64,000 nt of DNA from Candidatus Eiseniibacteriota bacterium (lineage in GTDB: Bacteria > Orphanbacterota > Orphanbacteria > Orphanbacterales > Orphanbacteraceae), in the NCBI GenBank assembly GCA_024276995.1, contig JAJRWB010000012.1:24173-88172 (forward strand). Direction: 5' to 3'. Positions 49,482 to 63,001 of the stretch are shown one piece after another; position 1 is the stretch's first letter, and every line of letters starts with the position of its first letter. The position numbers were made by a program, and so were the translations under genes. The notes beneath the pieces are model-generated. The model was given only the letters and a program-made list of their open reading frames with translations. It was not told the origin of the DNA and ran no database searches.

Positions 49482-52367
49482 GTGACGCGCCGGACCCGAT
49501 ACGTATTCCCTGCACTCATCGCGGCGCTCCTCGTGTTTCCCGCCTCGCCCGCGGCGCTCACCCCGCTCCCTTCCGGCGATGGGAGGTACGACGACGCGGG
49601 AAGAACGCTCTTCGCCGGCGGCGAAATCCTCTTTGTAGAAATCACCATCGATTCGGCGGACCTTGCCGACCTGCTCGCCGATCCCCACGCGAACGAATAC
49701 AAGAAATGCTCCGCCCGGTTCCACAACTCCTTCTTCGACGAGACCATCGGGAATGTCGGGATCCGTGTGCGCGGGAACACATCGCGCGACGGGCGGAAGA
49801 AATCGTGGAAGATCCGGTTCAACGCATTCGAAAAGGGAAGGAGGTTTCACGGCGTCGAGAAGATGAACCTCAACGGCGACAGGAACGATCCTTCCCTCGT
49901 CCGCTCGAAGCTCGCGTGGGACCTGATGCGCGCCGCGCGCATCCCTTCGTCGAGGACGAACCATGTTTATCTGACGATCAACTACGGCGCCGATGTCCGT
50001 GGTGTGTTCCTCAACGTGGAGCAGGTCGACGATCTTATGATGAAATCGTGGTTCGGTAACGACGGCGGTTCGCTCTACAAGTGCGCCTACAAAACCGACC
50101 GCGCCGATTTGCGCTATCGTGCGCCGGGAGACGGTGGTGCGTACAGGAACCTCGGCGGCGGGAAGACGTACGACGAGAAGAACCTCGACGATCCCGACTA
50201 CGAGGATCTCGCGGCGTTCATCGGCTTCATCGACGGCGCGACGGATGAAGAATTCGCCGCCCGGCTCGGCGAATGGATTCATCTCGACACGTTCCTGCGC
50301 GCCATGGCGGCGGACATCGTTCTCGGGAGTTGGGACGACTACTGGTTCGGCGCGAACAACTACTATCTCTATCACAACGAAGAGACAGGCCTGTTCGAAT
50401 ACATCCCGTACGATCTCGACAACACGTACGGCGTCGACTTCTTCGGCATCGACTGGTCCCGCCGGCTCTTCAGCGGCTGGGGGACGGGAGGGTTCGGCAG
50501 CATTGGCGACAGCGCGCCTCCTTTGATGACGAGGGTGATGTCGATCGGCGCGTTCCGGGACGAGATCCGCTGGTACGCGAGGGAAATCGCGGCCCATTCG
50601 TTCATCGTCCCGCTGAGAAGGGGAAAGATCGATGAACTCCGAAGCATGCTGGAGCCGTATGCCTTCCGGGGGGCCTTTTCCGGATCGACGATGGACAACG
50701 GCTACACGAACGAGGTCTTTCGCGCCGCCTTCGATCTCCCCGCCTCGTTCGCCGACAGCCCGACGCCGTGGGACTACGGTATCAAACCGTTCATCGAGAA
50801 TCGGTCGACTTTCGTCACCACGGCGTATTCGCCCCCCGTTCGGCCGCGCGTGAGAATCAGCGAACTGCTCGCACGGAACCGTTCGGGCGATCGGGACGAA
50901 GCGGGCGAGCGGGAAGACTGGGTGGAGCTTCAGAATTTCGGCGCGTCGCGCGTCGAGCTGGGGGGGATGTATCTCACCGACGATCCCGCCAGGCCGAAGA
51001 TGTGGCGCGTTCCCGACGGCACATCGATCCCGTCGTCCGGGTATCTCCGTTTCTGGTGCGACGGGGAGGAAGAGGATGGGCCGCTCCACACGTCGTTCCG
51101 GCTCGACGCGGACGGAGACGGCGTCGCCCTCTTCTTCGACGACGCAAGGCTCAACCTCCTCGTCGACTACATCGACTACGAGCGTCTCGGTCCGGACATC
51201 TCGTGGGGACGAAACCCGGAAGGAGACGGTTTGTCGCCCGTCTACATGGCCCGCCCGACGCCGGGCGCGGCAAACGTCTATTCGGGAAACATCGCGCCTT
51301 TCATCGAGGAGGTTCGCGTCGATCCCCCGTCGCCCCGGGAAAACGAAGCGCCGGTGATCACGGCGCGGATCACCGATCTCGATGGATCGGTGGTTTCGGC
51401 GCGCGTCTTCTTTCGCCCCGGCGGAGACGAGGGAAGCGCGCCCCTCGCCGATGACGGTGCCGGCGCCGACGGCGTGGCGGGCGACGGCGTCTTCACCAGC
51501 CGTGCCGGCGCGTATGGAGAAGGAACGTTCGTGGGCTACTGGATCGAGGCGACCGACGACAGCGCCGCCGTCGCCTTCTCCCCGCGAGACGCTCCATCCG
51601 ATAGGCACGGTTACCAGGTCGATTACATCCGCCCGGCGTTATTCATCAATGAAGTGTTCGCCGCGGGCGACACCACACCCGGCACCGGCGACTGGGTCGA
51701 GCTTTTCAACGGCGGCGCTTCGTTGATTTCGCTGGCCGGGTTGACGCTCAGTGATCGCCTCGACGAACCGGATCGTTTCGTCTTGCCCGATCTCCTTCTC
51801 GAGCCGGGGGGATTCCTCCTCGTCCGGTGCGAGGGCCGGCCTGAACGGGGCGAACTGCATGCGCCGTTCCGTCTCGCATCGGCGGGGGGCGGCGTCGGAC
51901 TCTTCGCGCCGGCCGCGGCGGGAAGAGTCGTGGTGGATACGGTCACCTACGCGGGGCATGGGGCGGGCGAATCGTACCGGCGGCGACAGGACGGTGGGGC
52001 CGACTGGCTGAAAGGAACGGGTGCGACGCCCGGCGCGACGAACGGCGGCGACTCGATCTTCCCCGAGCCGTGGCGCGACGGTTCGCGGCCTTTCACCGTC
52101 TGGCCGAACCCAGCGCCGCCGGCGTTTTCCGACGTGATCCTCGCCTTCCGCCTCCCCGCGACCGGGCGTGTGAGGGTGCGGCTCTACGACGTGGCGGGCC
52201 GCGAGAAAGTCGTCGCCCTCGACGGCGTCTTCGGCCCGGGCGACCATCGCGTGCGGTGGGAAGCGGCGGCGGGCATGGACGGGATCGGCGTGGCGCCCGG
52301 CGTCTATCTCCTCAGGCTCGAGGCGAACGGAAAGCACGAATCGACGCGCATCACGATTCTCCCGTGA
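49482..52367 (+). CDS. exported CotH-family kinase with two lamin-tail domains and a FlgD/T9SS-type CTD
   Basis: GIRVRGNTSR..KKSWKI.FN, NVEQVD, NNYYLY, IPYDLDNTYG; ISELLA...DWVEL twice; DDG...D..AGDGVF; PNP...LYDVAGR...PGVYLLRL. Confidence 0.88.
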   Translation: MTRRTRYVFPALIAALLVFPASPAALTPLPSGDGRYDDAGRTLFAGGEILFVEITIDSADLADLLADPHANEYKKCSARFHNSFFDETIGNVGIRVRGNTSRDGRKKSWKIRFNAFEKGRRFHGVEKMNLNGDRNDPSLVRSKLAWDLMRAARIPSSRTNHVYLTINYGADVRGVFLNVEQVDDLMMKSWFGNDGGSLYKCAYKTDRADLRYRAPGDGGAYRNLGGGKTYDEKNLDDPDYEDLAAFIGFIDGATDEEFAARLGEWIHLDTFLRAMAADIVLGSWDDYWFGANNYYLYHNEETGLFEYIPYDLDNTYGVDFFGIDWSRRLFSGWGTGGFGSIGDSAPPLMTRVMSIGAFRDEIRWYAREIAAHSFIVPLRRGKIDELRSMLEPYAFRGAFSGSTMDNGYTNEVFRAAFDLPASFADSPTPWDYGIKPFIENRSTFVTTAYSPPVRPRVRISELLARNRSGDRDEAGEREDWVELQNFGASRVELGGMYLTDDPARPKMWRVPDGTSIPSSGYLRFWCDGEEEDGPLHTSFRLDADGDGVALFFDDARLNLLVDYIDYERLGPDISWGRNPEGDGLSPVYMARPTPGAANVYSGNIAPFIEEVRVDPPSPRENEAPVITARITDLDGSVVSARVFFRPGGDEGSAPLADDGAGADGVAGDGVFTSRAGAYGEGTFVGYWIEATDDSAAVAFSPRDAPSDRHGYQVDYIRPALFINEVFAAGDTTPGTGDWVELFNGGASLISLAGLTLSDRLDEPDRFVLPDLLLEPGGFLLVRCEGRPERGELHAPFRLASAGGGVGLFAPAAAGRVVVDTVTYAGHGAGESYRRRQDGGADWLKGTGATPGATNGGDSIFPEPWRDGSRPFTVWPNPAPPAFSDVILAFRLPATGRVRVRLYDVAGREKVVALDGVFGPGDHRVRWEAAAGMDGIGVAPGVYLLRLEANGKHESTRITILP

Positions 52368-52385: not shown

Positions 52386-54041
52386 CTATCGGAGGAGGGT
52401 GAGGCGCTTCACGGCTCTGGCGCCCGCATGATCCTCGAGAATGCCGTAGTACGTCCCCGTCGAAGCGGGATAGCCGTTCTGCGTGTAGCCATCCCAGGTG
52501 ATGCCCCCCCGGTCGGCGGCGGCCGGCGAGAGGGGTAGGAGACGCACCTGCCGCCCCGTGATGTCGACGATACGAATTCGAGCGTCACGCGAAAGGGGCT
52601 CGGACCGTTTCCCCTGAACAGAAACATGAAATGTGAATGACCGACCCGGGTTCGGCGCGACGAGGAAGAACTCCTCTTCCACCCGGCCGGATCCCGATCC
52701 CGATTCGACCGAAACGACGGCGCCGGCCCCGTAGACATACGACCGACCGGCGACGCCGTTCGACCACGCCCCCACGGCGAAGTCGGGGTTCGTGTCGCCG
52801 CTGAAGGAAAGCGCCGGCGAAGAAGGACTCCCCGCGACGGCATACCCGAACTGGTCGCCGATCGCCTCTCCCTGGATGGAGATCAGGTCTCCCGTCAGTG
52901 GAGGGGCTCCGCCCGGCGAGAGGAAAGCGAAGCCCGTATCGGCGCCTCCCTGGTTCGACCCCGGAACCCCGATGACCAGGTGATCGAAGCCACTGCCGGT
53001 CACGTCCCCGCAACCCGCCACGCTCCGGCCGAGCCAGTCATCTTCCGCCGACCCCCGGACGGTGAAATCGGCGGTCCCGTCGAGGAGGGATCCGCCGTAG
53101 AAGACGTATGCCGCGCCGGCGTCGAGAACGGCGCCAGTATTCGCGTACGGCGCGCCGACGGCGATGTCGAGTTCGCCGTCACCGTTGATGTCTCCGGCGG
53201 CCGCCACGGAGAGGCCGAACTGGTCTCCCGCCGCCGCTCCGGCGACGGTCCAGTCGGCGAGGGTGTCGAGCGACGGCCCGCCGGAATAGACGTAGGCCGC
53301 CCCCTCCCACGTGTGGAGCGCGCTCGAGCGTGGAGCCCCGATGAGCAGGTCGTCCCCCGCGATGCCGTCGACATTGCCCGGCCCGGCGATCGCACCGCCG
53401 AACTGATCGCCCGCCGCCGCGCCGTGAAGGACGAGATCGGCCGTGCCGTCCGGCACAACTCCCCCGAAGAAGACATAGACCGTTCCATTGACCGTGCGCG
53501 GCGCCCCGACGGCGAAATCCATGTAGCCGTCGCCGTTGAGGTCACCCGCGGCGCCGACCGCCCTGCCGAGATAGTCGCCGGCCGCCGTGCCGGTGATGAT
53601 CACGTCGGCGACGGCGTCCATCGGGTTGCCGCCGAGAAAGAGATATGCCCTGCCGGCGCTCGCCCCCGCGGTGCTGTCCAGGAACGCGCCGACCAAGAGG
53701 TCATCGTAATGATCGCCGTTCACGTCGCCCACCCATGCCACGGCGGCGCCGAAAAAGCTTCCCGGATCGCCGGTGATCTCGAGGTCGGCGACTCCGGCCG
53801 GAACCGCCCGGCCGAAGAAGATGGAAACCTTGCCCGCGTTCTGTCCCGCTTCGTCGCTCGTGCTCGAGCCGACGGCGAGATCGGCCCTCCCGTCGCCGTT
53901 CGCGTCTCCACCGAGAGTGAGCGCGATGCCGAACTGTTCACCGGCGACATTGCCGTCCCAGGAAGCGAGAAGATCGACCTGTGAAAAGGCGGGCGGGACG
54001 GAGGCGGAAACCAGGATCAGGATGACAGCCGGAAGCTTCAT
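52386..54041 (-). CDS. FG-GAP (integrin-alpha-like) beta-propeller protein with FlgD/T9SS-type CTD
   Basis: Signal peptide; seven GDxNGDGxxDxxVG-type repeats; C-terminal PNP...DITGRQVR...WDG...GTYY. Confidence 0.9.
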   Translation of the reverse strand: MKLPAVILILVSASVPPAFSQVDLLASWDGNVAGEQFGIALTLGGDANGDGRADLAVGSSTSDEAGQNAGKVSIFFGRAVPAGVADLEITGDPGSFFGAAVAWVGDVNGDHYDDLLVGAFLDSTAGASAGRAYLFLGGNPMDAVADVIITGTAAGDYLGRAVGAAGDLNGDGYMDFAVGAPRTVNGTVYVFFGGVVPDGTADLVLHGAAAGDQFGGAIAGPGNVDGIAGDDLLIGAPRSSALHTWEGAAYVYSGGPSLDTLADWTVAGAAAGDQFGLSVAAAGDINGDGELDIAVGAPYANTGAVLDAGAAYVFYGGSLLDGTADFTVRGSAEDDWLGRSVAGCGDVTGSGFDHLVIGVPGSNQGGADTGFAFLSPGGAPPLTGDLISIQGEAIGDQFGYAVAGSPSSPALSFSGDTNPDFAVGAWSNGVAGRSYVYGAGAVVSVESGSGSGRVEEEFFLVAPNPGRSFTFHVSVQGKRSEPLSRDARIRIVDITGRQVRLLPLSPAAADRGGITWDGYTQNGYPASTGTYYGILEDHAGARAVKRLTLLR

Positions 54042-54068
54042 GTTGTAACCTCCCTCCCGAACGGGACG

Positions 54069-54101
54069 AAAAAGGGGAGGCCGGGCGCGACGCCCGGCCT
54101 C
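54069..54101 (-). terminator. intrinsic terminator
   Basis: Perfect 11-bp stem GAGGCCGGGCG-TCG-CGCCCGGCCTC then CCCTTTTT. Confidence 0.8.
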
Positions 54102-54115
54102 TGTTGAAGCGCGGC

Positions 54116-54598
54116 CTAGAACCGCTCTTTCTGGACGTGGCCCATCGCTTTCCGAACCGCGAAGGCGACGCGCGCGGCAAGGCCGACGGTCTGCGTTCCG
54201 GACCCGCCGCAATCGTTGATTGTCAGCGAAGCGGTGTCGTTCACGCTCCCGCCCGAATCGGTGGCGGTGGCGTCGATGGTCAGCGCTCCGGGTGCCGTCA
54301 ACGGCGGAACGACGAGCGCCACTTCATCGGAAACGACTTCACCCGCGGCCAGCTCGAGCGTGCCGACAACGGGGCCGAAGGACGTGCCGTTGAAATCGAT
54401 CATCACGCTGAGTTCGACCTGCTCGGCATCCGCGCCGACATTCTCCAGAGAGAAGAAGAAACTCACATCGTCGCCCGGGCACGCCTGGGCCGGGTCGAAG
54501 GCGATGTTCAGCGCGACGTCGGCGAACGATGTCGCGGGAACGAGAATCAATGCGAAGAGAGCGACGGCCAGGCCTGCGGTGGTCATGATGTTCTTCAA
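54116..54598 (-). CDS. small secreted Ig-like protein (160 aa)
   Basis: TTG start 7 nt after GGAGG; signal peptide ending TSFA-D; PGDDVSFFFSLENVG beta-sandwich pattern; two Cys; basic C-terminal tail. Confidence 0.75.
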   Translation of the reverse strand: MKNIMTTAGLAVALFALILVPATSFADVALNIAFDPAQACPGDDVSFFFSLENVGADAEQVELSVMIDFNGTSFGPVVGTLELAAGEVVSDEVALVVPPLTAPGALTIDATATDSGGSVNDTASLTINDCGGSGTQTVGLAARVAFAVRKAMGHVQKERF

Positions 54599-54870
54599 CT
54601 TTTTTCCTCCTGTGGAATCCCTCCTTAACATCGGGATCGGGATTCCGATTCGTGTTAACGCCACGGGTAGGAATTGCGGACATCGAATCTCGAGGGGGCG
54701 GGACATTGCGAACGGAGGAAGGCGGCCTCCGTGGAGACAACTCCTACCCCGTATTGCCATACCCGCGACGGCCGGCTGTCCGCCCGTCCCGGGGACCACG
54801 GGGCCGCCCCCCGACCCCCGTACAACCCCGGTTGCAGGCGGTTTACGAAGGCGGTCGCCCCTCGAGGACA

Positions 54871-54904
54871 GACACTTCATTCCCTGTTACACCTGTACGG
54901 AAAA
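54871..54904 (-). promoter_or_regulatory. candidate ECF promoter, copy 2
   Basis: TTTTCCGTACAGG-TGTAACAGG-GAATGAAG-TGTC; 22/34 ungapped identity to 56763-56796. Confidence 0.55.
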
Positions 54905-54969
54905 AGCGCGGGGATTTCCCAAGGATTCCTCTTCAGATCCTGGATTTCCCCGGCCGCGCCGCCCCCCTT

Positions 54970-55815
54970 CTACTCGCCCCGGCCGGACGTGTCCGACCCG
55001 GCCTCGAGGCGGAATCGGACCAGCTCGGTCCGATACTCCCGCCCGTCTTCGAGGACGACTTCGAGCCACCACGAGTACTCCCCGCGGTCGAGAAGACCGT
55101 CTCGACGGGTCAGCGTCACTGTCGTCGCGGCGGTTTCGATCGTGGCCACGGGAGAACCGTCGCTTCCGACCACGCGGAGGCGATAGAGAACGGCGCCGGG
55201 CACGGAACGCCATTCGAAGGAGATCTCTCCGGCGGGCCCCCGCCGGATTTCTCCCGTGGGGAAGAGGAGCGTCTCTTTCTCGAGACCGGACGAGAGGCCG
55301 CGGTGATCGCGTTTGATATCGGTCTCCCGCTGCGAGTACCAGATTCCCGTCGCGAGGAGGACGAGGACCGAGGCGGCCGCCAGGCCCGACCGGAAGAGGG
55401 GGCCCTTTCGCAACCTTCCGCCGACCGCCGGGCCGCGCCGGCGCCTGTGCCCATCACGGCCGCCGATCGCGACGGCGTCGCGGATCATCGACTCGGTCGC
55501 TTCCACCTCCTCGGCCCGGTCCGCCGCCGTCGATTCCACGGCGGACCGGCAGATCACGCAGCGTTCCAGGTGAGATTCCGTCAGTTCCAACACGGCGCCG
55601 TCGAGGTTGCCTTCGGAATAGGCTCCCAGAACGAGGGCGCCGGGATGATCGTCGCTGTTCCAGCCCGATCCCTCCTTCAGGAACTCGAATGCGGAAGCAC
55701 ACTTCCCGCAGTACCTCATGTGTGCCCGGGCCGACTCGAGAGAGGAACCGGCAAGTTCACCGTCGAAGAGCATCTCCAATGCTTCGGCATCGATACATTC
55801 CCGTTCAGTTTTCAT
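54970..55815 (-). CDS. membrane anti-sigma factor with two zf-HC2 motifs
   Basis: HMRYCGKC and HLERCVIC; TM GLAAASVLVLLATGIWY; C-terminal FN3-like FEWRSVPGA..YRL...GEYSWWLEV; overlaps the sigma stop. Confidence 0.82.
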   Translation of the reverse strand: MKTERECIDAEALEMLFDGELAGSSLESARAHMRYCGKCASAFEFLKEGSGWNSDDHPGALVLGAYSEGNLDGAVLELTESHLERCVICRSAVESTAADRAEEVEATESMIRDAVAIGGRDGHRRRRGPAVGGRLRKGPLFRSGLAAASVLVLLATGIWYSQRETDIKRDHRGLSSGLEKETLLFPTGEIRRGPAGEISFEWRSVPGAVLYRLRVVGSDGSPVATIETAATTVTLTRRDGLLDRGEYSWWLEVVLEDGREYRTELVRFRLEAGSDTSGRGE

Positions 55816-56617
55816 AGTTCATCTCTTTTCGCAGCAGTTTCGTGATCCGTGCGATCCTCGGGTACACGCTCTTGTAATGTTCCATTCCAATTTCTCCGGC
55901 GATCTCACGTGCGGTCTTTCCATCTTCGAAGCGGAGCCGGGCGATTTTCCTCTCTTCGGGGGCGAGTCTTTCCAGCGCCGCGAGGTATCTCTCCCGGATC
56001 TGTGCGAGTTCCACCCAGCGATCGGGCGATGCGGGGGTGAAACCGATCGGCACCCGGCTTTCGATGATGTCCCGCATCTCGTCTTCGTCGAATGAAAGGG
56101 GGGCCTGCCTTCGAAAGTGGTAGTCGTGGGCGAGATTGGTTCTGTAGACGCTCGTCAGGCTTTCCTCGATCGACCGGATATGGGGCGCGAAATCTCTCAT
56201 TCGCATCTGGATGCCGTACCGGCTGTTGAGCGTCTCGATCACTTCCGCATAAGAAAGGCCGTCCCAGTAGACGAGAACGAAAATCTTGCGACTGAGCGGC
56301 GGCAGTGCTCCGATCGCCCGAGGCATCGTCCGGCGCCCCAGCCTCGAACGGATCGAGTCGATCGTCAGGTTCCGCGTAATCAGCTTCAACCACGTCGGGA
56401 AGCTGCAGAGCTTGTCGCCATCCCCGTCGCCATAGGCGAGAAGGCGCCTGCCGTTCTCCTCCGCCAGCTTCTGCAGCACATAGAGATAAACGTCCATCCG
56501 CTCATCGTCGTCGTCGATCAGCAGGGCGATCGATCGAAGGATGACAGGTGTGTAATCCCGGACGAAGCGTTCCCAACCCGCCACGGGATCGGTTCGAAGC
56601 AGGTGAATCAGATCCAT
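55805..56617 (-). CDS. ECF-type sigma-70 family factor with a large internal insertion
   Basis: sigma2: WERFVRDY...SFPTWLKLITRNLTID; sigma4: ALERLAPEERKIARLRFEDGKTAREIA; start uncertain. Confidence 0.85.
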   Translation of the reverse strand: MDLIHLLRTDPVAGWERFVRDYTPVILRSIALLIDDDDERMDVYLYVLQKLAEENGRRLLAYGDGDGDKLCSFPTWLKLITRNLTIDSIRSRLGRRTMPRAIGALPPLSRKIFVLVYWDGLSYAEVIETLNSRYGIQMRMRDFAPHIRSIEESLTSVYRTNLAHDYHFRRQAPLSFDEDEMRDIIESRVPIGFTPASPDRWVELAQIRERYLAALERLAPEERKIARLRFEDGKTAREIAGEIGMEHYKSVYPRIARITKLLRKEMNYEN

Positions 56618-56762
56618 CTCGGAGCCGTCCCCCTTTACCGGCGCGGGCGGCTCCCGGTGATGGGGCCGGCGAATCGTTTCTCGAGAAGTGCCCGGTATAA
56701 TGAACATATCGGTCGTGAATCTCCCTGTCCCGCGATTTCGACAATCACGCGGGAGACCGGTC

Positions 56763-56796
56763 GACGAACCACCTCCTGGTCTTCCTTTACGGAAAA
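56763..56796 (-). promoter_or_regulatory. candidate ECF promoter, copy 1 (autoregulatory)
   Basis: TTTTCCGTAAAGG-AAGACCAGG-AGGTGGTT-CGTC upstream of the sigma gene. Confidence 0.55.
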
Positions 56797-56835
56797 TCAC
56801 GCGGCGATTCGAAGAGAATCATGCGGGGATTCGAA
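56792..56835. repeat. 22-bp tandem direct repeat (2 copies, 19/22 identical)
   Basis: Minus strand TTCGAATCCCCGCATGATTCTC / TTCGAATCGCCGCGTGATTTTC. Confidence 0.75.
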
Positions 56836-56866
56836 AAAAGATCCGCAATCTAACTCTCTATAATAC

Positions 56867-56895
56867 TTGACGTTAGGCGTTCCGCGTGATATCAT
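56867..56895 (+). promoter_or_regulatory. sigma70 promoter
   Basis: TTGACG-N17-TATCAT with TGn extension. Confidence 0.7.
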
Positions 56896-56907
56896 GATCG
56901 TGTCATC

Positions 56908-57741
56908 ATGAAGAATCGAAACTATCTTCTTCTCCTGCCGGCGCTGCTGGCCGCCGTCTCGTTTTCCTTCGCGGGGAAGCCTGCGGTCTTCTCGAGCGGC
57001 CAGTGCAAAACGGTCTGGGAGAATTCGTCGCCCAGGCTCTATTCCATCGTCCGGAACAACCTCTTCGTTCCGGTACACGTTTCGTACACTTTCGACGGTC
57101 CCGGCGTTTCGCAAAGCGGCTTCCTTTCCATCCAGGCGAGAGACCAAGATTCGCTCTACGTGCAGGTGCCGTCTCTTCCCCTTGGAAGTCACGACTTTGT
57201 TCTCGCCCTGTGGGATACTTCCGCCGTTCCCGACACCCTCTTCTGGACGAGCACGTCATCCGTTCTGGTCGTCGATTCGACGCTCTTCCTTTCGGTGGAG
57301 CCCGATTTCTTCCCCGCGGTGATCGATGGAGATTCGCCTCTCACCTATCCGGCGACACCGAAGAAGACAGTGGTCAAGGTTCCCAAGAACGCTTCCTTCT
57401 CTGATCCCCGTTCGTCGAGCATCTCCTGGAGCTTCTACATCACGAATGCCGACCCGAACGACCCCGGAAACTTGCTTGTCGTTTCGCCCGACTCGGGGAG
57501 CGTCGTGGCGATTCCCGGAGAAGAGTTTTCGGTCTTGACTTTCCTCGACGCCGAGTCACCGGTCGCGCCGGGAACCATCAATACTCTCAACATGCTCGTT
57601 TCTATCCAGGGCACGACGATGCTTCACGTCTGCACCCCGGTGGTCACCGATCAGCTGGGTGCTCTTCCGATAGCGACGGGTGTGCCGGATGCCGAACAGG
57701 AACGTTCTTCCTGGGGCGGGATCAAGACGATTTTTCGGTAA
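56908..57741 (+). CDS. secreted hypothetical protein, beta-rich, ending in SWGGIKTIFR
   Basis: MKNRNYLLLLPALLAAVSFSFA signal peptide; two Cys. Confidence 0.75.
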   Translation: MKNRNYLLLLPALLAAVSFSFAGKPAVFSSGQCKTVWENSSPRLYSIVRNNLFVPVHVSYTFDGPGVSQSGFLSIQARDQDSLYVQVPSLPLGSHDFVLALWDTSAVPDTLFWTSTSSVLVVDSTLFLSVEPDFFPAVIDGDSPLTYPATPKKTVVKVPKNASFSDPRSSSISWSFYITNADPNDPGNLLVVSPDSGSVVAIPGEEFSVLTFLDAESPVAPGTINTLNMLVSIQGTTMLHVCTPVVTDQLGALPIATGVPDAEQERSSWGGIKTIFR

Positions 57742-57753
57742 ACGCCGTCCGTT

Positions 57754-60700
57754 CTAGTTCCGGAGAAGGACGAATCCCGCCCAGTAGTACGGGTTCCGGT
57801 AGTCTTTTCGCTTCCACGGACCGGTTCGAATTCGATCCTTTCTCAGTTCCCGCTGTGCTTCGCTCAGCGCGGAGCGGTTGCTCCGCCCGTCGACGATCCG
57901 GCGGTAGAACCGGACGGCGAACTCCGATGTGGCCCGGTCGTCCACGGGCCAAAGCGTGGCGACCACAGCGTCCGTGCCGGCGTGAAGGAACGCTCCCGTG
58001 AGCCCGATGGGGGCGTATCCCTCCGGGGAGTCCGATCGGTACCCGGCGCCGAGTGCCGTCTCGCAGGCGCCGAGAAAGACGAGCGGAGCGTCGAGACGCA
58101 TCTGGATAATCTCGTACACCGAAAGGCGTCCGTCCTCCCCGCCGCCCCCGGCGAGTTCGACATATGAATAGAGAGGATGAACCGGATCGACGACCCCGTG
58201 CGACGCGATGTGGATGTAGTCGCCCGGTTCGCCCGCCTTTCCGAAAAGTGCTTCCCCGGCATCCTTTCCCACAAGGATGGTGCGCCGGTTTCGTGGAAAG
58301 AGTTTGCCGATCTTTCGCGCCTCCTCGCCGACGTGGGGAAGCTTCTCCTCCCGCTCACCGGGATATGCGAAGATCGTCACTCCCTTTGCGGGACGGCTCT
58401 TCTTCCGCAAGAACGGAGCGAACGACCCGCGCCGCCGGCACAATTCGAATCGATCGCCGAGCCAGGCGATCGGGCCCGCGTCGACGGCGTCCGGGGGCGC
58501 ATCGGCGACCAGCGCGGCGAACGGGAGCGACCGAAGAGGGCCGCCGGGAATGACGGTCACTCTTCGCGCACCGTCGAGAAAAGTGGAGACGGGGTTGATT
58601 AGGATATTGTAAAGGCCTCGAAGGACCGGGACGGTTTCTTCGATCGGGTTTCGCGGATCGGAAAGGAGGCTCCGGGCGAGCCGAACGCGCCCGTCGAGGT
58701 CATCCGAGGCGCAGGAGGTCGTTACGGCGAAGAGCGTTTCGGCGGTGAGCACGAAAATGACCATCGAATCGGCGGTGTTGAAGTATTCCAGGAGGATTTC
58801 GCCGTCATCGAGGCTCTCCTGCATTTCCCGTCGCCCGTTGTTCCCGCTCCACGGCGGCGAAGAATCGCCCCTCCTTCCGTCCGGCAGACGACCGAGGCTC
58901 TCTTCGTGTCTCCGGTACGCCTCTTCCAGTTCACGCCTCAAGTTGTCGGCGCGATCCGGGTCCCCCTGTTCGAGGGCGCTCCTCATCTCCTCGCGGAGCC
59001 GGTCGATGGCGGCACGCCTTTCCCGCTCCTCTCTGGCGGCGGTGTTCTCCGACTCGCTCCTTCCCGCAAGAGGCGAAGCGGCTACGTTGTCGAGGAAAGA
59101 TCGCATCCTCGACCGCCCGGCGGCCAGGAAGGCCTTGTCTACGTCGCCGCGGCGCAGATAGAGAAGAACGAGCGCTTCGTAGGGGCTTCGCTTGGTCTCG
59201 AAGAAACCGGCGCGCCCTCTCGGCGTCACGAACTCGGAGCGGAGGCGCTCGATCTTCTCGATCGCCGACTCGAAAGAGCCGGCGGCCTCCTCGTCCATGG
59301 CGAGATGCCGTTCGACTTTCCCCTTCACGTAATCGAACCGCCAAGCGAGTTCGGGAAGCTGCTCGAGGATCGGTGAGGACGTCGCGCTGTCGAGAACCGA
59401 CAACGCGTCGGCGAACTCTTTCCTTTTTACGTCGATCCGGGAACGAAGGAGGGCGTAATTGAGCTTCCCGATGATTAGATCGGTCCGAACGGCCAGGTCG
59501 TTGTACTCGTCGGCGATCTTCGAGGCCTCTTCGATACGGTTTTCGGAGAAGAGGAGGTCGGCGTATTCCGCGAGGGCGTTGACGACGGCGCCCGCGTCGC
59601 CGAGCAGGCGATACCGCTCGCACGCCTGCTTCATCGATTCGCGGGCCCGCTCCTTCTCTCCAATGGTGTAGCGCGTCCGGGCGATCGCCAGAAGGGCGCC
59701 CGCCTCGGCCTCGACGTCCTCCATGTCGCGGGCGATGGAGCGTGCCGCCTCGAAATTCTCCAGCGCTTTTCCCAAATCCCCTTCGGCGAGGGCGAGACGC
59801 CCGATCATTTCATAGGTGTACCGCCGGATCGTCGGGAGGGAGAGCGAATCGGCCGCTTCGATAAGGCGCTTCGCCATGGTTCGGGCGAGGCGGTACTCCC
59901 CCGTCTCGACGAGCGACGCCGTCTGGTTGAGCCGCGCCAGGAGGAAGCCGGGGGCGTTTCCGGCGACGCTGTCGATCCGGGCGGCCTCCTCGTAGCGCAC
60001 CGCGGCGAGACGGTGATCTCCCACCGTTCCGGCAAGCACCCCCCTGGCGTTCAACAGATCGCTTCGAAGGGGGGCGAGGTTATTCTTTTCGATGACCGTT
60101 TCCGCCGTCGCGAAGGAAGCCCGGGCACCGAAAAAATCGCCGAATCGCCGCGCGAGATTCCCCAGGGCGATCGCCGTTTGCGAAATGCCGACGGGGTTTT
60201 CCATTTCCCGGTGAATCCGAAGCGCTTCCTCCAGGTGGTCGCGCGCATGCGGATAGTCCCCGCGGAGCGCCTCGATCCAGGCGATCGACTGGAGCGTTTC
60301 CGCGATATCCTGCGACGCATTGAGACGGCGGAAGAGCGCGAGCGCCTCGACATACTGGCTCAGTGCTTTGTGATAGTCGCCCGAACTCCAGTCGATCTGT
60401 GCCAGGTAACCGAGCGTCGCCGTCCGGTTGTAGAGATCGCCCTCTTCCTCCTGGAGTTTCGAAGCCGCCTTCAGCAGGCGGGACGCCCTTTCGAGATCGC
60501 CCCGGTTGAGCGCGGAAAGACCGACATAGCTGCTCGCCAACCCTTCGCGGTAGCGGTCTCCGGTTTCCCGAAAGAGTGTGACCGCGGAGTCGAGCATCGC
60601 CTCCGCGGGCACGTATTCGAGGCGCTGAAGGAGACCGATCCCCTTCAGGTAGTATCTCTCGCCCCGGCGCCACTTTGTCTTCTCCTCATCATCGAAGGCG

Positions 60701-61068
60701 CGAAAACGCGATTCGATCCTTGCCGGAAGCGTATCCCCGGCGGCGAGTGATCGCCTTGCCCAGACGGCCGCACCGCGCCGGAACGCCTCCGCCTCGTCTC
60801 CGCTTGTGTCGAAAGCGAGGCGATGGAGAAGAACGGTCACGTCGGAGCGATACGATGGATAGGCGGCCAAGAGGGAATCGATGATACCAATATCGGTCGC
60901 CCCAGCCGCCGATGCCGCGGCGCGGGCGATGTCGGTCTTGCTCGGCTCGCCGGCGGGGAGAAGGCAAGGCGTCAGGACAAGCGCGATCGCCGGGACGAGG
61001 ACGAAGCATCGAGCGGAGAAACGGAGCGACGGCGTGCGGTGATCGCTCGGCGGGAACCGGGAAATCAG
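57754..61068 (-). CDS. TPR-CHAT (caspase-like) protease with N-terminal signal-like segment; start uncertain
   Basis: Long TPR array; IERLR; LLEYF; LYNILINPV; IPGGPLRSLPFAAL; HIASHG (His); LVFLGACET (Cys); TLWPVDD; NPYYWAGF. Confidence 0.9.
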   Translation of the reverse strand: MISRFPPSDHRTPSLRFSARCFVLVPAIALVLTPCLLPAGEPSKTDIARAAASAAGATDIGIIDSLLAAYPSYRSDVTVLLHRLAFDTSGDEAEAFRRGAAVWARRSLAAGDTLPARIESRFRAFDDEEKTKWRRGERYYLKGIGLLQRLEYVPAEAMLDSAVTLFRETGDRYREGLASSYVGLSALNRGDLERASRLLKAASKLQEEEGDLYNRTATLGYLAQIDWSSGDYHKALSQYVEALALFRRLNASQDIAETLQSIAWIEALRGDYPHARDHLEEALRIHREMENPVGISQTAIALGNLARRFGDFFGARASFATAETVIEKNNLAPLRSDLLNARGVLAGTVGDHRLAAVRYEEAARIDSVAGNAPGFLLARLNQTASLVETGEYRLARTMAKRLIEAADSLSLPTIRRYTYEMIGRLALAEGDLGKALENFEAARSIARDMEDVEAEAGALLAIARTRYTIGEKERARESMKQACERYRLLGDAGAVVNALAEYADLLFSENRIEEASKIADEYNDLAVRTDLIIGKLNYALLRSRIDVKRKEFADALSVLDSATSSPILEQLPELAWRFDYVKGKVERHLAMDEEAAGSFESAIEKIERLRSEFVTPRGRAGFFETKRSPYEALVLLYLRRGDVDKAFLAAGRSRMRSFLDNVAASPLAGRSESENTAAREERERRAAIDRLREEMRSALEQGDPDRADNLRRELEEAYRRHEESLGRLPDGRRGDSSPPWSGNNGRREMQESLDDGEILLEYFNTADSMVIFVLTAETLFAVTTSCASDDLDGRVRLARSLLSDPRNPIEETVPVLRGLYNILINPVSTFLDGARRVTVIPGGPLRSLPFAALVADAPPDAVDAGPIAWLGDRFELCRRRGSFAPFLRKKSRPAKGVTIFAYPGEREEKLPHVGEEARKIGKLFPRNRRTILVGKDAGEALFGKAGEPGDYIHIASHGVVDPVHPLYSYVELAGGGGEDGRLSVYEIIQMRLDAPLVFLGACETALGAGYRSDSPEGYAPIGLTGAFLHAGTDAVVATLWPVDDRATSEFAVRFYRRIVDGRSNRSALSEAQRELRKDRIRTGPWKRKDYRNPYYWAGFVLLRN

Positions 61069-62339
61069 GTGTCGTATCCCCCTTTCTCCTGTTCTTTGTC
61101 CACCCCCTCTTCCCCCTCCGATCGCGCAATGATCGCCGCGCCGCACGAGTCGCTGAACACGTTCACCGATGTGCGGAACATGTCGAGCGGCCGGTCGATG
61201 GCGAGCATGATCCCGACGACGGCGTCCACTTCGGGGCCGCGCAGGTTCACCGATTCGAGGACGAGGAAGATGATCACCAGCCCCGCGCTCGGCACCGCAG
61301 CCGCGCCGATCGAGGCGAGAAGCGCCGTGATCACCACGACGAGCTGCTGGCCGAGGGAAAGATCGATGCCGAGAACCTGGGCGATGAAGAGGACGCCGGC
61401 GCACTCATACAGCGCCGTGCCGTCCATGTTCACGGTGGCCCCCATGGGGAGGACGAACGACGAGACACGGTTCGATACGCCGACTTTCTTCTCCACCGCG
61501 CGGAGCGTTACCGGCAGCGTGGCGCCCGACGAGCTGGTGGAGAACGCGAGGGTGAGCGGTTCGAGCATGTTCCGGAAGTGGATTCGCGGGCGGATCCTGC
61601 CGAGGACGATCAGGAGAAGCGGGAGGGTGATGAAAAGGTGCACCGCGAGGCCGGAAGCGATGGTCAGCATGTAAAGCGCCATCGCCCGAAATGAATCGAA
61701 ACCGGTGAGACCGACGACCCGTGCGATCAGTCCGAACACGCCGATCGGGGCGAGCCGGATGATCCAGCCGGTCATCTTCATCATGGCACCGAACCCGGCG
61801 TTGAAGAAACGGGAAAGCGTTTCACGCGGTCCTTCCGGGAGAGAGGCGACCGCCGCGCCGAAGAGAATGCAGAAGAAAATGAGGGCGAGCATGTCCGGTT
61901 TCGCCGCGGCATGAACGACGTTTTCGGGGACCATGCGCATGAGAAGATCGGCGGGCGTCCCCGGTTCGGCGAGTTCGGGGATCGTCGCGCCGCCGGCGCC
62001 GGCGATGTTCGCCCCCGCCCCGGGGCGGATCACGTTGACCAGCACGAGACCGACCAGTATGGCGAGAAGGCTGGAGAGGATGTAATAGCCGAGGGTCTTG
62101 GAGAACATCCGGCCGAGGTTCCGCCCGCCCCCCACCGACGCGACGCCGGAGATGATCGAAAAAAGGACGAGCGGGACGATCACCATCTTGAGGAGGCGGA
62201 CGAAGAGGAGGCCGATCCAGCCGACGCGCGGAACGATGTCCGCCCCGCCCGCCGCCCCGGCGGCGATGCCGAGCGCCATGGCGATGAACACCTGCCAGTG
62301 GAGACGACCGTACCAGCGCTGCGCCGCGACGGCGCTCAT
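61065..62339 (-). CDS. dicarboxylate/amino acid:cation symporter (DAACS, GltP-like)
   Basis: FVRLLKMVIVPLV, AFSTSSSGATLP, GATVNMDGTALY, DRPLDMFRTSVNV..D. Confidence 0.95.
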   Translation of the reverse strand: MSAVAAQRWYGRLHWQVFIAMALGIAAGAAGGADIVPRVGWIGLLFVRLLKMVIVPLVLFSIISGVASVGGGRNLGRMFSKTLGYYILSSLLAILVGLVLVNVIRPGAGANIAGAGGATIPELAEPGTPADLLMRMVPENVVHAAAKPDMLALIFFCILFGAAVASLPEGPRETLSRFFNAGFGAMMKMTGWIIRLAPIGVFGLIARVVGLTGFDSFRAMALYMLTIASGLAVHLFITLPLLLIVLGRIRPRIHFRNMLEPLTLAFSTSSSGATLPVTLRAVEKKVGVSNRVSSFVLPMGATVNMDGTALYECAGVLFIAQVLGIDLSLGQQLVVVITALLASIGAAAVPSAGLVIIFLVLESVNLRGPEVDAVVGIMLAIDRPLDMFRTSVNVFSDSCGAAIIARSEGEEGVDKEQEKGGYDT

Positions 62340-63001
62340 TCGAACTGCGCCCGGAACCTGGCGAACTCTTCTTTCAGCGCGGCGAGTTCATCGCGAAGCT
62401 CTTTGAGTTCGCCGCAGGTGCGGTCGAGTCGCTCGGCGAGAAGGGCGACGCCGTCGTCCCGCGCGGCCACGTGAAACGTGTCGTGCCCCTCCTCGGCGAC
62501 CTCCACCTCCCCGGCGAGAAGGTGCATGTAGCGATTCTCTTTCCTCCCGGGAAGCCGGGGGAGTCTCACCACCCACGGCTCGCCGGCGGCGGCGAGGGCG
62601 TCGAGAATGTCGCCCACTTCGTCGAGACTCTCGAAGCGGTGCATTCTCCCCGACCGCCCGCGGATCTCGCCCACCGTCTGGGCGCCGCGGAGCATCAGCA
62701 CGGCGAGGACGACCATCTCGCGTTTCTCAAGACCGCTCTTTTCCAGGAACGAGTGGCGATACTTACGCGTCCGGCTTCCCGCGCCGTCCACCACCACGAC
62801 CCATCCCTTGTCGCGAAGCGCCTCGAGAGAGCACTCCACGTCCGATTCGGGAAAGATCACCACCGGGTTCCGGTTCGACTTCTGATTGCACGCCGCGGTG
62901 AGCGAATTCAGGGTGAGGGGATAGTAATCGGGGGTGGTCAACTCTTTTTCGATGAGACATCCGAGGATACGCACTTCTCGATGATCCAACTCTTCCCGCA
63001 T
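62336..63001 (-). CDS. YceH/DUF480 family protein
   Basis: RILGCLIEKELTTPDYYPLTLNSL..ACNQKSNRNPV, LMLRGAQTVGE, RYMHLL. Confidence 0.92.
   Translation of the reverse strand: MREELDHREVRILGCLIEKELTTPDYYPLTLNSLTAACNQKSNRNPVVIFPESDVECSLEALRDKGWVVVVDGAGSRTRKYRHSFLEKSGLEKREMVVLAVLMLRGAQTVGEIRGRSGRMHRFESLDEVGDILDALAAAGEPWVVRLPRLPGRKENRYMHLLAGEVEVAEEGHDTFHVAARDDGVALLAERLDRTCGELKELRDELAALKEEFARFRAQFE

What the first reader, a model, noticed from the sequence alone, without database searches (positions are those of the whole stretch)
52386..61068. CRISPR-free TPR-CHAT protease / ECF sigma / membrane anti-sigma module with secreted putative targets
Seen: a ~1100-aa TPR-CHAT protein with an intact His (HIASHG) and Cys (GACET) dyad and a hydrophobic signal-like N-terminus, 1.1 kb from an ECF-type sigma translationally coupled to a zinc-finger/TM/FN3-like anti-sigma, flanked by three secreted proteins. 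Established: in type III-E CRISPR systems the TPR-CHAT protease Csx29 cleaves Csx30 to release a sigma factor. Inference: the same logic may work here across the envelope without cas genes. TPRs would sense a ligand, CHAT would cut the outer domain of the anti-sigma (the DHRG segment after the TM is one candidate site), and sigma would induce adjacent surface proteins. CHAT-sigma-antisigma neighbourhoods may exist in other genomes, but I know of no characterised mechanism for an exported version.
Basis: partly seen in the sequence, partly recalled or inferred. Interest (0 to 1): 0.85.

Follow-up and report, generated by a model that had tools for sequence, protein, structure and literature searches.

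The report
Exported caspase-like protease with sigma/anti-sigma pair
A secreted caspase-like (TPR-CHAT) protease is encoded next to a sigma factor and its membrane anti-sigma in two soil bacterial phyla, and probably releases the sigma factor by acting on the outer part of the anti-sigma, a split form of the Myxococcus DdvA-DdvS system.

Summary
The window encodes a 1104-aa TPR-CHAT protein with an intact His/Cys dyad and a signal-like N-terminus. It also encodes a sigma factor overlapping a zinc-finger/one-TM/FN3 anti-sigma, plus three secreted proteins.

The sigma, anti-sigma and CHAT genes form a conserved trio. CHAT lies beside this sigma family in 32 of 38 loci from Eisenbacteria and Acidobacteriota; 2 contigs were too short and 4 lack CHAT. 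All 30 linked CHATs carry an N-terminal hydrophobic segment. The dyad is invariant in 12 of 12.

A complex model places the FN3 ectodomain between the TPR and CHAT domains. The score is 0.71 and the best of 3 controls is 0.00. The disordered TM-FN3 linker carries a conserved hydrophobic-Arg motif in 24 of 25 orthologues. An RseP-type protease is present and no Cas1 or RAMP gene was found.

The best reading is that the exported CHAT acts as sensor and site-1 protease of the anti-sigma. No cleavage has been shown.

This is not unprecedented. Myxococcus DdvA fuses a periplasmic TPR-CHAT to a zinc anti-sigma (PMC11506125). I rate the locus a new split variant of a known kind. The sigma also has two sigma4-like domains.

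The parts
57754..61068 (-). Exported TPR-CHAT protease, 1104 aa counted from CTG 61068. Signal-like hydrophobic core at residues 21-39 (nt 61008-60952). TPR region roughly residues 130-700. CHAT domain at residues 814-1103. Catalytic His957 (nt 58200-58198) and Cys1002 (nt 58065-58063).
   Evidence: Pfam CHAT 1.8e-53 and TPR families. Dyad invariant in 12 of 12. Hydropathy. Non-canonical start context. Orthologues have canonical starts and signal peptides. The CHAT-domain profile best matches PDB 8rot_B (E 3.2e-11), then type III-E TPR-CHAT chains.
55805..56617 (-). Sigma factor, 270 aa. Sigma2 domain at residues 1-93, a sigma4-like HTH domain at about 96-155, a disordered linker at 167-197, and a canonical sigma4 at 198-265.
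   Evidence: Pfam gives two Sigma70_r4 stretches plus weak r2. TIGR02937 scores 64.3 bits against a 42.9 cut-off. Model pLDDT 74.9. hhalign of the middle against the C-terminal domain gives 91.4% probability, E 9e-7; the control against sigma2 gives 0.1%. The library holds 554 cluster representatives at E<=1e-30.
54970..55815 (-). Single-pass anti-sigma, 281 aa. Two cytoplasmic helical units each carry an HxxxCxxC motif (H32/C36/C39 and H82/C86/C89). The TM helix lies near residues 143-160. The disordered periplasmic linker at 161-186 contains the conserved K-R169-D (R169 at nt 55311-55309). The FN3-like ectodomain spans residues 190-270 (nt 55248-55006). The start overlaps the sigma stop by 11 nt.
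   Evidence: zf-HC2 in 12 of 12 orthologues. Hydropathy. Model. FN3 fold matches. Linker motif in 24 of 25. Predicted contact with CHAT.
56908..57741 (+). 277-aa secreted protein of no known family, lying between CHAT and sigma. It is convergent with CHAT (12-nt gap) and divergent from sigma (290-nt gap). It ends in the C-terminal tag SWGGIKTIFR. It is an Eisenbacteria-specific accessory of the module.
   Evidence: No Pfam or NCBIfam match. Orthologues occupy the same position in 6 Eisenbacteria loci. Absent from the G009 locus and from acidobacterial loci. Atlas leads to Ig-like families scored only 0.75-0.78.
54116..54586 (-). 156-aa secreted protein with a weak CARDB-like match, downstream of the anti-sigma.
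   Evidence: Signal-like N-terminus. Pfam CARDB E 0.0041, below the cut-off. An orthologue was seen only in G007.
52386..54041 (-). 551-aa secreted FG-GAP repeat protein with a FlgD_ig/T9SS-like C-terminal domain. It is a possible regulon member.
   Evidence: Pfam FG-GAP 3.2e-34; FlgD_ig 4.1e-5, 23.9 bits, below its 27-bit cut-off. A 56%-identical orthologue lies in the same position in G007. FG-GAP-like ORFs lie downstream of CHAT in 4 acidobacterial loci. None in 20 further loci.
61065..62339 (-). Sodium:dicarboxylate symporter gene, not part of the module. Its stop codon overlaps the presumed CTG start of CHAT as CTGA.
   Evidence: Pfam SDF 1.5e-120. Sequence. No match to it in any of the 11 relatives' loci fetched, including the five orthologous CHAT loci.

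Best explanation
The sigma factor, the zinc-finger single-pass anti-sigma and the exported TPR-CHAT protein form one envelope-spanning signalling module.

At rest the anti-sigma holds the sigma factor in the cytoplasm through its zinc-finger helices. Its periplasmic FN3 domain docks on the TPR-CHAT protein, between the TPR superhelix and the caspase-like domain.

On a periplasmic signal sensed by the TPR part, the His957/Cys1002 site would cut the disordered linker between the membrane helix and the FN3 domain. The likely site is at or near the conserved hydrophobic-Arg motif (R169). This is a site-1 cut made in trans. An RseP-type site-2 protease would then cut within the membrane, and the sigma factor would be freed.

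Shown here: the domain content, the co-conservation, and the N-terminal hydrophobic segments that point to export. Predicted by a model only: the FN3-CHAT contact. Inferred: the cut, its position, the signal and the regulon.
For: 1. CHAT lies beside this sigma family in 32 of 38 loci from two phyla. Two contigs were too short to judge and 4 loci lack CHAT.
2. In most acidobacterial loci the order is sigma, anti-sigma, CHAT on one strand. Gaps between anti-sigma and CHAT are often under 10 nt.
3. An all-against-all comparison of the flanks of 32 loci found only three widely recurring families: sigma in 32, CHAT in 30, and anti-sigma in 18 plus 6.
4. All 30 linked CHATs have an N-terminal hydrophobic segment.
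5. The His and Cys are invariant in 12 of 12, which argues for catalysis rather than a pure scaffold.
6. The complex model of CHAT 230-1104 with anti-sigma 160-281 scored 0.50, 0.71 and 0.71 in three runs, median 0.71. The best of 3 controls scored 0.00. That mark was reached by 58 of 80 solved complexes and 2 of 110 mismatched pairs. Partner pLDDT was at least 67 and the runs shared at least 39% of contacts. Contacts include CHAT residues 962-963, five residues after His957.
7. The TM-FN3 linker is predicted disordered. A [VFWYTIML]-R-[DGKNQRS] motif lies at a fixed distance from the FN3 domain in 24 of 25 orthologues. Control windows gave 2-8 of 25. In 500 shuffles the mean was 2.8 and the maximum 8.
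8. The genome has an RseP-like Peptidase_M50 gene with a 448-aa frame.
9. Precedent: in DdvA a periplasmic TPR-CHAT blocks RseP, and the TM linker lies near the active site of the partner monomer (PMC11506125, passages read).
Against: - No cleavage has been observed anywhere, including in DdvA. There the catalytic mutants behaved like wild type and no signal is known.
- The window CHAT has no canonical start codon before its signal-like segment.
- In the window CHAT is not in the sigma operon. The opposite-strand 277-aa gene lies between them.
- Three loci of a sister branch of the same sigma family have an anti-sigma with a weak match reaching the ectodomain region (E 0.005) but no CHAT within about 10 kb. 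One acidobacterial locus also lacks CHAT.
- Predicted interface residues are no better conserved than the rest: 0.47 against 0.51 for CHAT, and 0.51 against 0.50 for FN3.
- The linker motif was defined after looking at the sequences, and the sequences are related.
- The complex tool's calibration holds only roughly, because my own alignments were used.
- No shared promoter motif was found.
Confidence: 0.5

Rival explanations
1. TPR-CHAT is a non-cutting co-receptor or shield. It binds the FN3 ectodomain and sterically protects the anti-sigma from another site-1 protease or from RseP, much as RseB protects RseA. The signal makes it let go, or makes it cut itself. The dyad would then serve self-processing or other substrates.
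For: The complex model supports binding but says nothing about cutting. In DdvA the bulky TPR-CHAT blocks RseP, and catalytic mutants showed no phenotype (passages read). The docked part is the folded FN3 domain; the linker was not placed with confidence.
Against: The His and Cys are invariant in 12 of 12 orthologues from two phyla. A conserved Arg motif sits in the disordered linker. No other protease gene recurs in the flanks of 32 loci.
Confidence: 0.2
2. CHAT is an output of the sigma factor rather than its regulator. It would be a secreted protease of the regulon that acts on other envelope, surface or foreign proteins, such as the 277-aa tagged protein or the FG-GAP protein. The gene linkage would reflect co-regulation only.
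For: In the window CHAT is transcribed separately and lies next to secreted proteins. The ECF classification paper notes that neighbourhood alone cannot separate regulators from targets (PMC7826278, passage read). Four sigma loci lack CHAT.
Against: The anti-sigma ectodomain scored 0.71 against CHAT, while unrelated partners scored 0.00. Many acidobacterial loci show tight sigma, anti-sigma, CHAT order. The candidate substrates are not co-conserved outside close relatives.
Confidence: 0.15
3. It is a cytoplasmic, CRISPR-less craspase-like switch. CHAT would cut a cytoplasmic inhibitor of the sigma factor, as Csx29 cuts Csx30.
For: If translation began at the first canonical downstream start (a TTG near 60870), the window protein would lack the hydrophobic segment. 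Relatives do hold sigma / anti-sigma-like / CHAT operons whose CHAT shows no N-terminal hydrophobic segment (L028 and L030).
Against: The peptide upstream of that TTG is conserved, and orthologues start before their signal peptides with canonical codons. The Csx29 model scores 40.3 bits against a 300 cut-off. No RAMP or Cas1 gene is in the genome. The predicted contact is with the extracytoplasmic FN3 domain.
Confidence: 0.05

Closest known systems
[quoted passage not shown]
   Same: - A cytoplasmic HxxxCxxC anti-sigma domain, one TM helix and a flexible periplasmic linker.
- A periplasmic TPR-CHAT with a His-Cys dyad and a co-encoded sigma.
- The same proposed logic: CHAT as site-1 protease, followed by RseP.
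- The CHAT-domain profile finds the 991-aa PDB chain 8rot_B as best match (E 3.2e-11). I take 8rot_B to be DdvA from its length and the positions of the aligned His and Cys; no tool named it.
   Different: - Here the protease and the anti-sigma are separate genes, so any cut would be in trans between two proteins.
- The anti-sigma has its own FN3 ectodomain, which DdvA lacks.
- The sigma has an extra sigma4-like domain.
- No CBASS, CRISPR or other defence neighbours were found.
- The hosts are Eisenbacteria and Acidobacteriota. The paper reports fused DdvA-like proteins only in Myxococcota and one Comamonas.
E. coli sigmaE pathway, DegS / RseA / RseP (regulated intramembrane proteolysis; recalled textbook knowledge)
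   Same: A periplasmic protease with a peptide-binding sensor domain cuts the outer part of a single-pass anti-sigma. A site-2 metalloprotease follows and sigma is released. An RseP-like gene is present here.
   Different: The candidate site-1 enzyme is a caspase-fold cysteine protease with TPRs, not a PDZ serine protease. It is encoded with the sigma pair. The signal is unknown.
Type III-E CRISPR craspase: Cas7-11 (gRAMP), Csx29 TPR-CHAT, Csx30, Csx31 and RpoE (PMC10028731; search listing and abstract only)
   Same: A TPR-CHAT protease is genetically tied to a sigma factor and its inhibitor, and proteolysis serves as the release step.
   Different: That system is cytoplasmic, RNA-guided and Cas7-11 dependent. 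Here CHAT carries an export signal. No RAMP or Cas1 gene is in the genome. The Csx29 model scores far below its cut-off. PDB Csx29 chains match at E 1.6e-9 to 1.2e-6, weaker than 8rot_B.
ECF54 (Actinobacteria), for which CHAT, carboxypeptidase and subtilase genes were noted in the genetic context (PMC8999054, passage read; PMC7826278, passages read)
   Same: It is a published note that CHAT genes sit near some ECF sigma genes and might control them by proteolysis.
   Different: ECF54 is described as lacking an anti-sigma and belongs to another phylum. No exported CHAT and no anti-sigma target were proposed. Group descriptions are in supplements that I could not open, so I cannot say whether this sigma family has an ECF group number.

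Membership tests
DdvA-type TPR-CHAT anti-sigma | N-terminal cytoplasmic zinc anti-sigma domain (HxxxCxxC) | tested here: met
   Two HxxxCxxC motifs are present. Pfam zf-HC2 matches 12 of 12 orthologues.
DdvA-type TPR-CHAT anti-sigma | Single TM helix followed by a flexible periplasmic linker | tested here: met
   One hydrophobic segment near residues 140-160. The model shows a helix at 143-172 and low confidence over 161-186. No dedicated topology predictor was available.
DdvA-type TPR-CHAT anti-sigma | TPR-CHAT domain fused to the anti-sigma in one polypeptide | tested here: not met
   CHAT is a separate gene in the window and in all 32 linked loci. So this is not a member, though it may work alike.
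DdvA-type TPR-CHAT anti-sigma | Conserved His-Cys dyad in the periplasmic CHAT | tested here: met
   His957 and Cys1002 are invariant in 12 of 12. N-terminal hydrophobic segments occur in 30 of 30.
DdvA-type TPR-CHAT anti-sigma | Controls a CBASS/CRISPR defence island | tested here: not met
   No Cas1 or RAMP gene in the 96%-complete genome. PADLOC gave only weak TPR and BovA matches on CHAT and nothing on the neighbours.
Type III-E craspase (Csx29) | Csx29 equivalog score, and association with Cas7-11 (gRAMP) | tested here: not met
   NF041237 scores 40.3 bits against a 300 cut-off. No RAMP family match in the genome.
Type III-E craspase (Csx29) | Cytoplasmic location | tested here: not met
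   A signal-like N-terminus is conserved in the orthologues. This rests on hydropathy only.
ECF (group 4) sigma factors | Sigma2 and sigma4 domains only, with no sigma3 or sigma1.1 | tested here: inconclusive
   TIGR02937 passes its cut-off. However, there is an extra HTH domain between sigma2 and sigma4. It is sigma4-like by profile comparison. Whole-model fold matches are best to three-domain sigmas, but weakly (E 3.7e-4, TM-score 0.3).
Regulated intramembrane proteolysis of anti-sigma factors | Site-2 protease present in the genome | tested here: met
   Peptidase_M50 match at E 4.7e-68 in a 448-aa frame at G000:C75.
Regulated intramembrane proteolysis of anti-sigma factors | Signal-dependent site-1 cut of the anti-sigma ectodomain | not testable with these tools
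   This needs biochemistry. Only a predicted contact and a conserved linker motif are available.

The most novel reading that the evidence does not exclude
The trio is a widespread, CRISPR-independent, caspase-fold route of regulated intramembrane proteolysis. A stand-alone periplasmic TPR-CHAT docks on the FN3 ectodomain of a zinc anti-sigma and cuts its linker in trans after a conserved Arg, freeing a sigma factor of a distinct class that carries two sigma4-like domains. In Eisenbacteria the co-encoded 277-aa protein, which bears the lineage's C-terminal SWGxVKxLFR tag, could be the ligand or a securin-like pseudosubstrate read by the TPRs. That would resemble the way DegS reads the C-termini of outer membrane proteins. 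The 277-aa part of this reading is far less likely than the rest.
Probability: 0.35. Interest if true: 0.75.

Novelty: new variant of a known kind. Interest (0 to 1): 0.6.

Why it matters
The idea that a periplasmic caspase-like domain starts anti-sigma proteolysis was put forward for DdvA. It could not be tested there, because protease and substrate are one chain and the signal is unknown.

In this module the two are separate proteins. Binding and cutting can therefore be tested by mixing two purified parts, and the cut site can be mapped.

The module is not rare. The sigma family has 554 cluster representatives at E<=1e-30. It occurs in 21 of 301 sampled Acidobacteriota genomes, a major soil phylum.

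The locus also shows a sigma architecture with two sigma4-like domains that I did not find described.

Tried and rejected
Promoter motif. I tallied 5-mer/4-mer pairs with 14-19 nt spacers in the 330 nt around 32 sigma starts. The best pair occurred in 7 of 32. The reverse-strand control reached 8, and shuffles reached 5-7. No shared promoter was found. Reading the upstream regions by eye gave nothing firm.

Single-sequence PDB search with CHAT found only TPR proteins. The full-length profile was also swamped by TPRs. Only the CHAT-domain profile was informative.

Homologue search for the 277-aa protein found only the protein itself. The Atlas gave leads below 0.8.

Two zinc fingers matched to two sigma4 domains. 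I rejected this as a rule. Acidobacterial anti-sigmas have one HxxxCxxC motif while their sigmas keep both HTH domains.

Interface conservation gave no signal.

Tag as the general CHAT ligand. I rejected this as a general rule. The WGx[VI]Kxx[FY]R-stop pattern occurs 21, 27 and 31 times in three Eisenbacteria genomes, but 1 and 0 times in two acidobacterial genomes that hold the trio.

PADLOC gave no defence-system call.

Sequencing runs: none was listed and no RNA holder was listed. The start codon could therefore not be checked in reads, and read laying was not used.

Literature. Searches found no paper describing a separate exported CHAT with a sigma/anti-sigma pair. Supplements were closed, including the ECF group descriptions and DdvA table S7, and they may bear on this claim.


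Full report
WHAT IS THERE

The region has about 64% G+C. The genes, read, are as follows:
- CotH/LTD protein with a T9SS sorting tail, 49482-52367 (+).
- FG-GAP protein, 52386-54041 (-).
- 156-aa secreted protein, 54116-54586 (-).
- Anti-sigma, 54970-55815 (-).
- Sigma, 55805-56617 (-).
- 277-aa secreted protein, 56908-57741 (+).
- TPR-CHAT, 57754-61068 (-).
- Sodium:dicarboxylate symporter, 61065-62339 (-).
- DUF480 protein, 62336-63001 (-).

Pfam and NCBIfam confirm these calls. The window is G000:C73 of a 3.76-Mb, 96%-complete assembly. Titles of related records name Candidatus Eisenbacteria; some are labelled Gemmatimonadetes.

THE CHAT PROTEIN

The CHAT domain (E 1.8e-53) follows a long TPR region. 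His957 in HIASHG and Cys1002 in GACET are invariant in 12 of 12 orthologues.

The start is unusual. No ATG, GTG or TTG lies between the symporter stop and the hydrophobic segment. The frame's only upstream canonical start, GTG 61404, is 340 nt inside the symporter gene. The next canonical start, a TTG near 60870, lies after the hydrophobic segment. CTG 61068 overlaps the symporter stop as CTGA and sits 8 nt after AGGAGAAAGGGGGA.

The peptide encoded between the CTG and that TTG aligns with orthologues. Those orthologues begin with canonical codons and classical signal peptides, for example MRALALLLATTAVVAQGFA/AD in G006. I therefore take CTG 61068, or ATT 61065, as the start. I could not check reads, because no run was listed.

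THE SIGMA AND ANTI-SIGMA

The sigma passes the sigma70-ECF superfamily model. It has two regions that Pfam reads as sigma4. The model shows sigma2, an HTH domain, a disordered stretch at 167-197, and a second HTH domain.

Profile comparison of the middle and C-terminal domains gives 91.4% probability (E 9e-7). The control against the sigma2 part gives 0.1%. Whole-model fold matches are weak and best to three-domain sigmas. The architecture is kept in all 13 aligned members.

The anti-sigma starts 11 nt before the sigma stop. Its model has two helical units, each with HxxxCxxC, then a TM helix, a low-confidence linker and a beta sandwich. The best PDB matches of the sandwich are FN3 domains. 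Acidobacterial members have one zinc motif.

CO-CONSERVATION

Eisenbacteria loci with the module:
- G007 keeps the whole set: CHAT, 277-aa protein, sigma, anti-sigma, 156-aa protein and FG-GAP.
- G002 has two copies of anti-sigma, sigma, 277-aa protein and CHAT.
- G006 has two partial copies on short contigs.
- G009 has sigma, anti-sigma and CHAT on one strand.

A pattern scan of species genomes added 7 loci from Acidobacteria-labelled MAGs and one Verrucomicrobia-labelled MAG. All 7 show sigma, anti-sigma and CHAT on one strand.

In an even sample of 301 Acidobacteriota genomes, 21 hold the sigma family at E<=1e-30. Only 8 candidates per genome were scored, so this is a lower bound. I fetched 20 new loci. 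Of these, 18 have CHAT adjacent, one contig ends too early, and one has none.

Of the 10 genomes held for the window's own phylum, 6 have the sigma family. Three of their loci belong to a sister branch with a shorter anti-sigma and no CHAT within about 10 kb.

Overall, 38 loci were examined: 32 with CHAT, 2 not assessable and 4 without. Comparing all flanking ORFs of 32 of these loci, only sigma (32), CHAT (30) and anti-sigma (18 plus 6) recur widely. All 18 newly found CHATs, and the 12 aligned ones, have an N-terminal hydrophobic segment.

CONTACT AND CANDIDATE SITE

The complex model used CHAT 230-1104 and anti-sigma 160-281, each supplied with its alignment.
- Scores were 0.50, 0.71 and 0.71, median 0.71. 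The best of 3 controls scored 0.00.
- That mark was reached by 58 of 80 solved complexes and 2 of 110 mismatched pairs.
- Partner pLDDT was at least 67, and the runs shared at least 39% of contacts.
- The tool warns that the calibration counts hold only roughly with my own alignments.

FN3 residues 209-267 touch CHAT residues 432-471, 789-818 and 962-963. The interface is not better conserved than the rest of either protein, although CHAT R794 (11 of 12) and anti-sigma G220 (12 of 12) are conserved.

The linker N-terminal to the FN3 domain is variable and rich in Pro, Ser and Ala. A hydrophobic-Arg-[DGKNQRS] motif lies 20-34 residues before the anchor Trp in 24 of 25 orthologues. Control windows gave 2-8 of 25, and 500 shuffles reached at most 8. 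I defined the motif after seeing the data.

CONTEXT

- An RseP-like gene is present.
- No Cas1 or RAMP gene was found, and there are no tandem repeats in 40000-64000.
- No defence-system model matched the neighbours.

COMPARISON WITH WHAT IS KNOWN

The CHAT-domain profile best matches PDB 8rot_B (991 aa, E 3.2e-11), then type III-E TPR-CHAT chains. I take 8rot_B to be DdvA from its length and the residue numbers of the aligned His and Cys; no tool named it.

The DdvA paper (PMC11506125, passages read) reports the following:
- A zinc anti-sigma whose periplasmic part is a dimeric TPR-CHAT.
- A proposal that CHAT clips the TM linker in trans before RseP acts.
- RseP degrades DdvA once the TPR-CHAT is removed.
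- No phenotype for the catalytic mutants, and no known signal.
- Fused forms only in Myxococcota and one Comamonas.

A review notes CHAT genes near ECF54 sigmas, which lack an anti-sigma. I found no paper on a separate exported CHAT with a sigma/anti-sigma pair. Supplements were closed.

VERDICT

Export and co-conservation hold, and binding is supported by a model. Cutting is untested, and the claim that no exported version exists is out of date.

I read the locus as a split form of the DdvA-type system, hence a new variant of a known kind. It is useful because it makes the site-1 hypothesis directly testable. Interest 0.6.

Noticed in passing
window 57712-57741 (C-terminus of the 277-aa protein) and 21 other ORFs across G000: A C-terminal tag...[ST]E-x-[ST]-SWG-x-[VI]-K-x-L-F-R followed by stop, ends 22 ORFs of 110-470 aa in this genome, and 19 of them have signal-like N-termini. 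SWGx[ILVM]Kxx[FY]R occurs 18 times and is always followed by a stop, with 0 internal occurrences. The DNA pattern occurs 21, 27 and 31 times in three Eisenbacteria genomes, against 1 and 0 in two acidobacterial genomes, and 0 for the reversed control. It looks like a lineage-specific protein-sorting or recognition signal. No Pfam or NCBIfam model matched the tagged 277-aa protein. One literature search found nothing on it.
   Followed up: partly
G000:C39:26737-32356 (locus L069): The same genome holds a second CHAT/sigma locus. It has an ordinary 195-aa ECF-like sigma, divergent from a TPR-CHAT with a lipoprotein-like N-terminus (LLSSGC). A 258-aa lipoprotein-like protein follows, then an anti-sigma with one zinc motif, a TM helix and an FN3-like segment. 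Both CHAT genes of this genome therefore sit with sigma/anti-sigma pairs.
   Followed up: partly
L028:6387-10696 (G009) and L030:9174-13240 (G005): This is a third flavour of the association. An ECF-like sigma is followed by a roughly 200-aa protein with an anti-sigma-like N-terminus and a CarboxypepD_reg beta sandwich. A TPR-CHAT follows with no N-terminal hydrophobic segment in its printed N-terminus, so it may be cytoplasmic. It recalls the published ECF54 context of CHAT and carboxypeptidase genes.
   Followed up: partly
window 55805-56617 and alignment A5: The sigma family has a sigma4-like domain inserted between sigma2 and the C-terminal sigma4. There are 554 cluster representatives at E<=1e-30 in a library of 1.84 billion proteins. 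A sister branch (L046-L048) pairs with a shorter anti-sigma and no CHAT. Which HTH domain reads the -35 element is unknown.
   Followed up: partly
window 61065-61068: The symporter stop and the presumed CHAT start overlap as CTGA, which suggests translational coupling on a CTG start. At the position where the G007 orthologue has its TTG start, the window has CTC.
   Followed up: partly
window 56618-56907: The 290-nt divergent region between the sigma and the 277-aa gene holds three copies of CCGC[AG]TGATT, and two of them sit within a longer TTCGAATCNCCGCNTGATT repeat. I saw this by eye in the sequence. It was not tested against chance or against orthologues.
   Followed up: no
window 49482-52367: A 961-aa CotH kinase-like protein carries two lamin-tail domains, a choice-of-anchor X domain and a T9SS type A sorting tail. 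It lies convergent with the FG-GAP gene. In the other sigma/CHAT loci, matches to it covered only its C-terminal tail.
   Followed up: no
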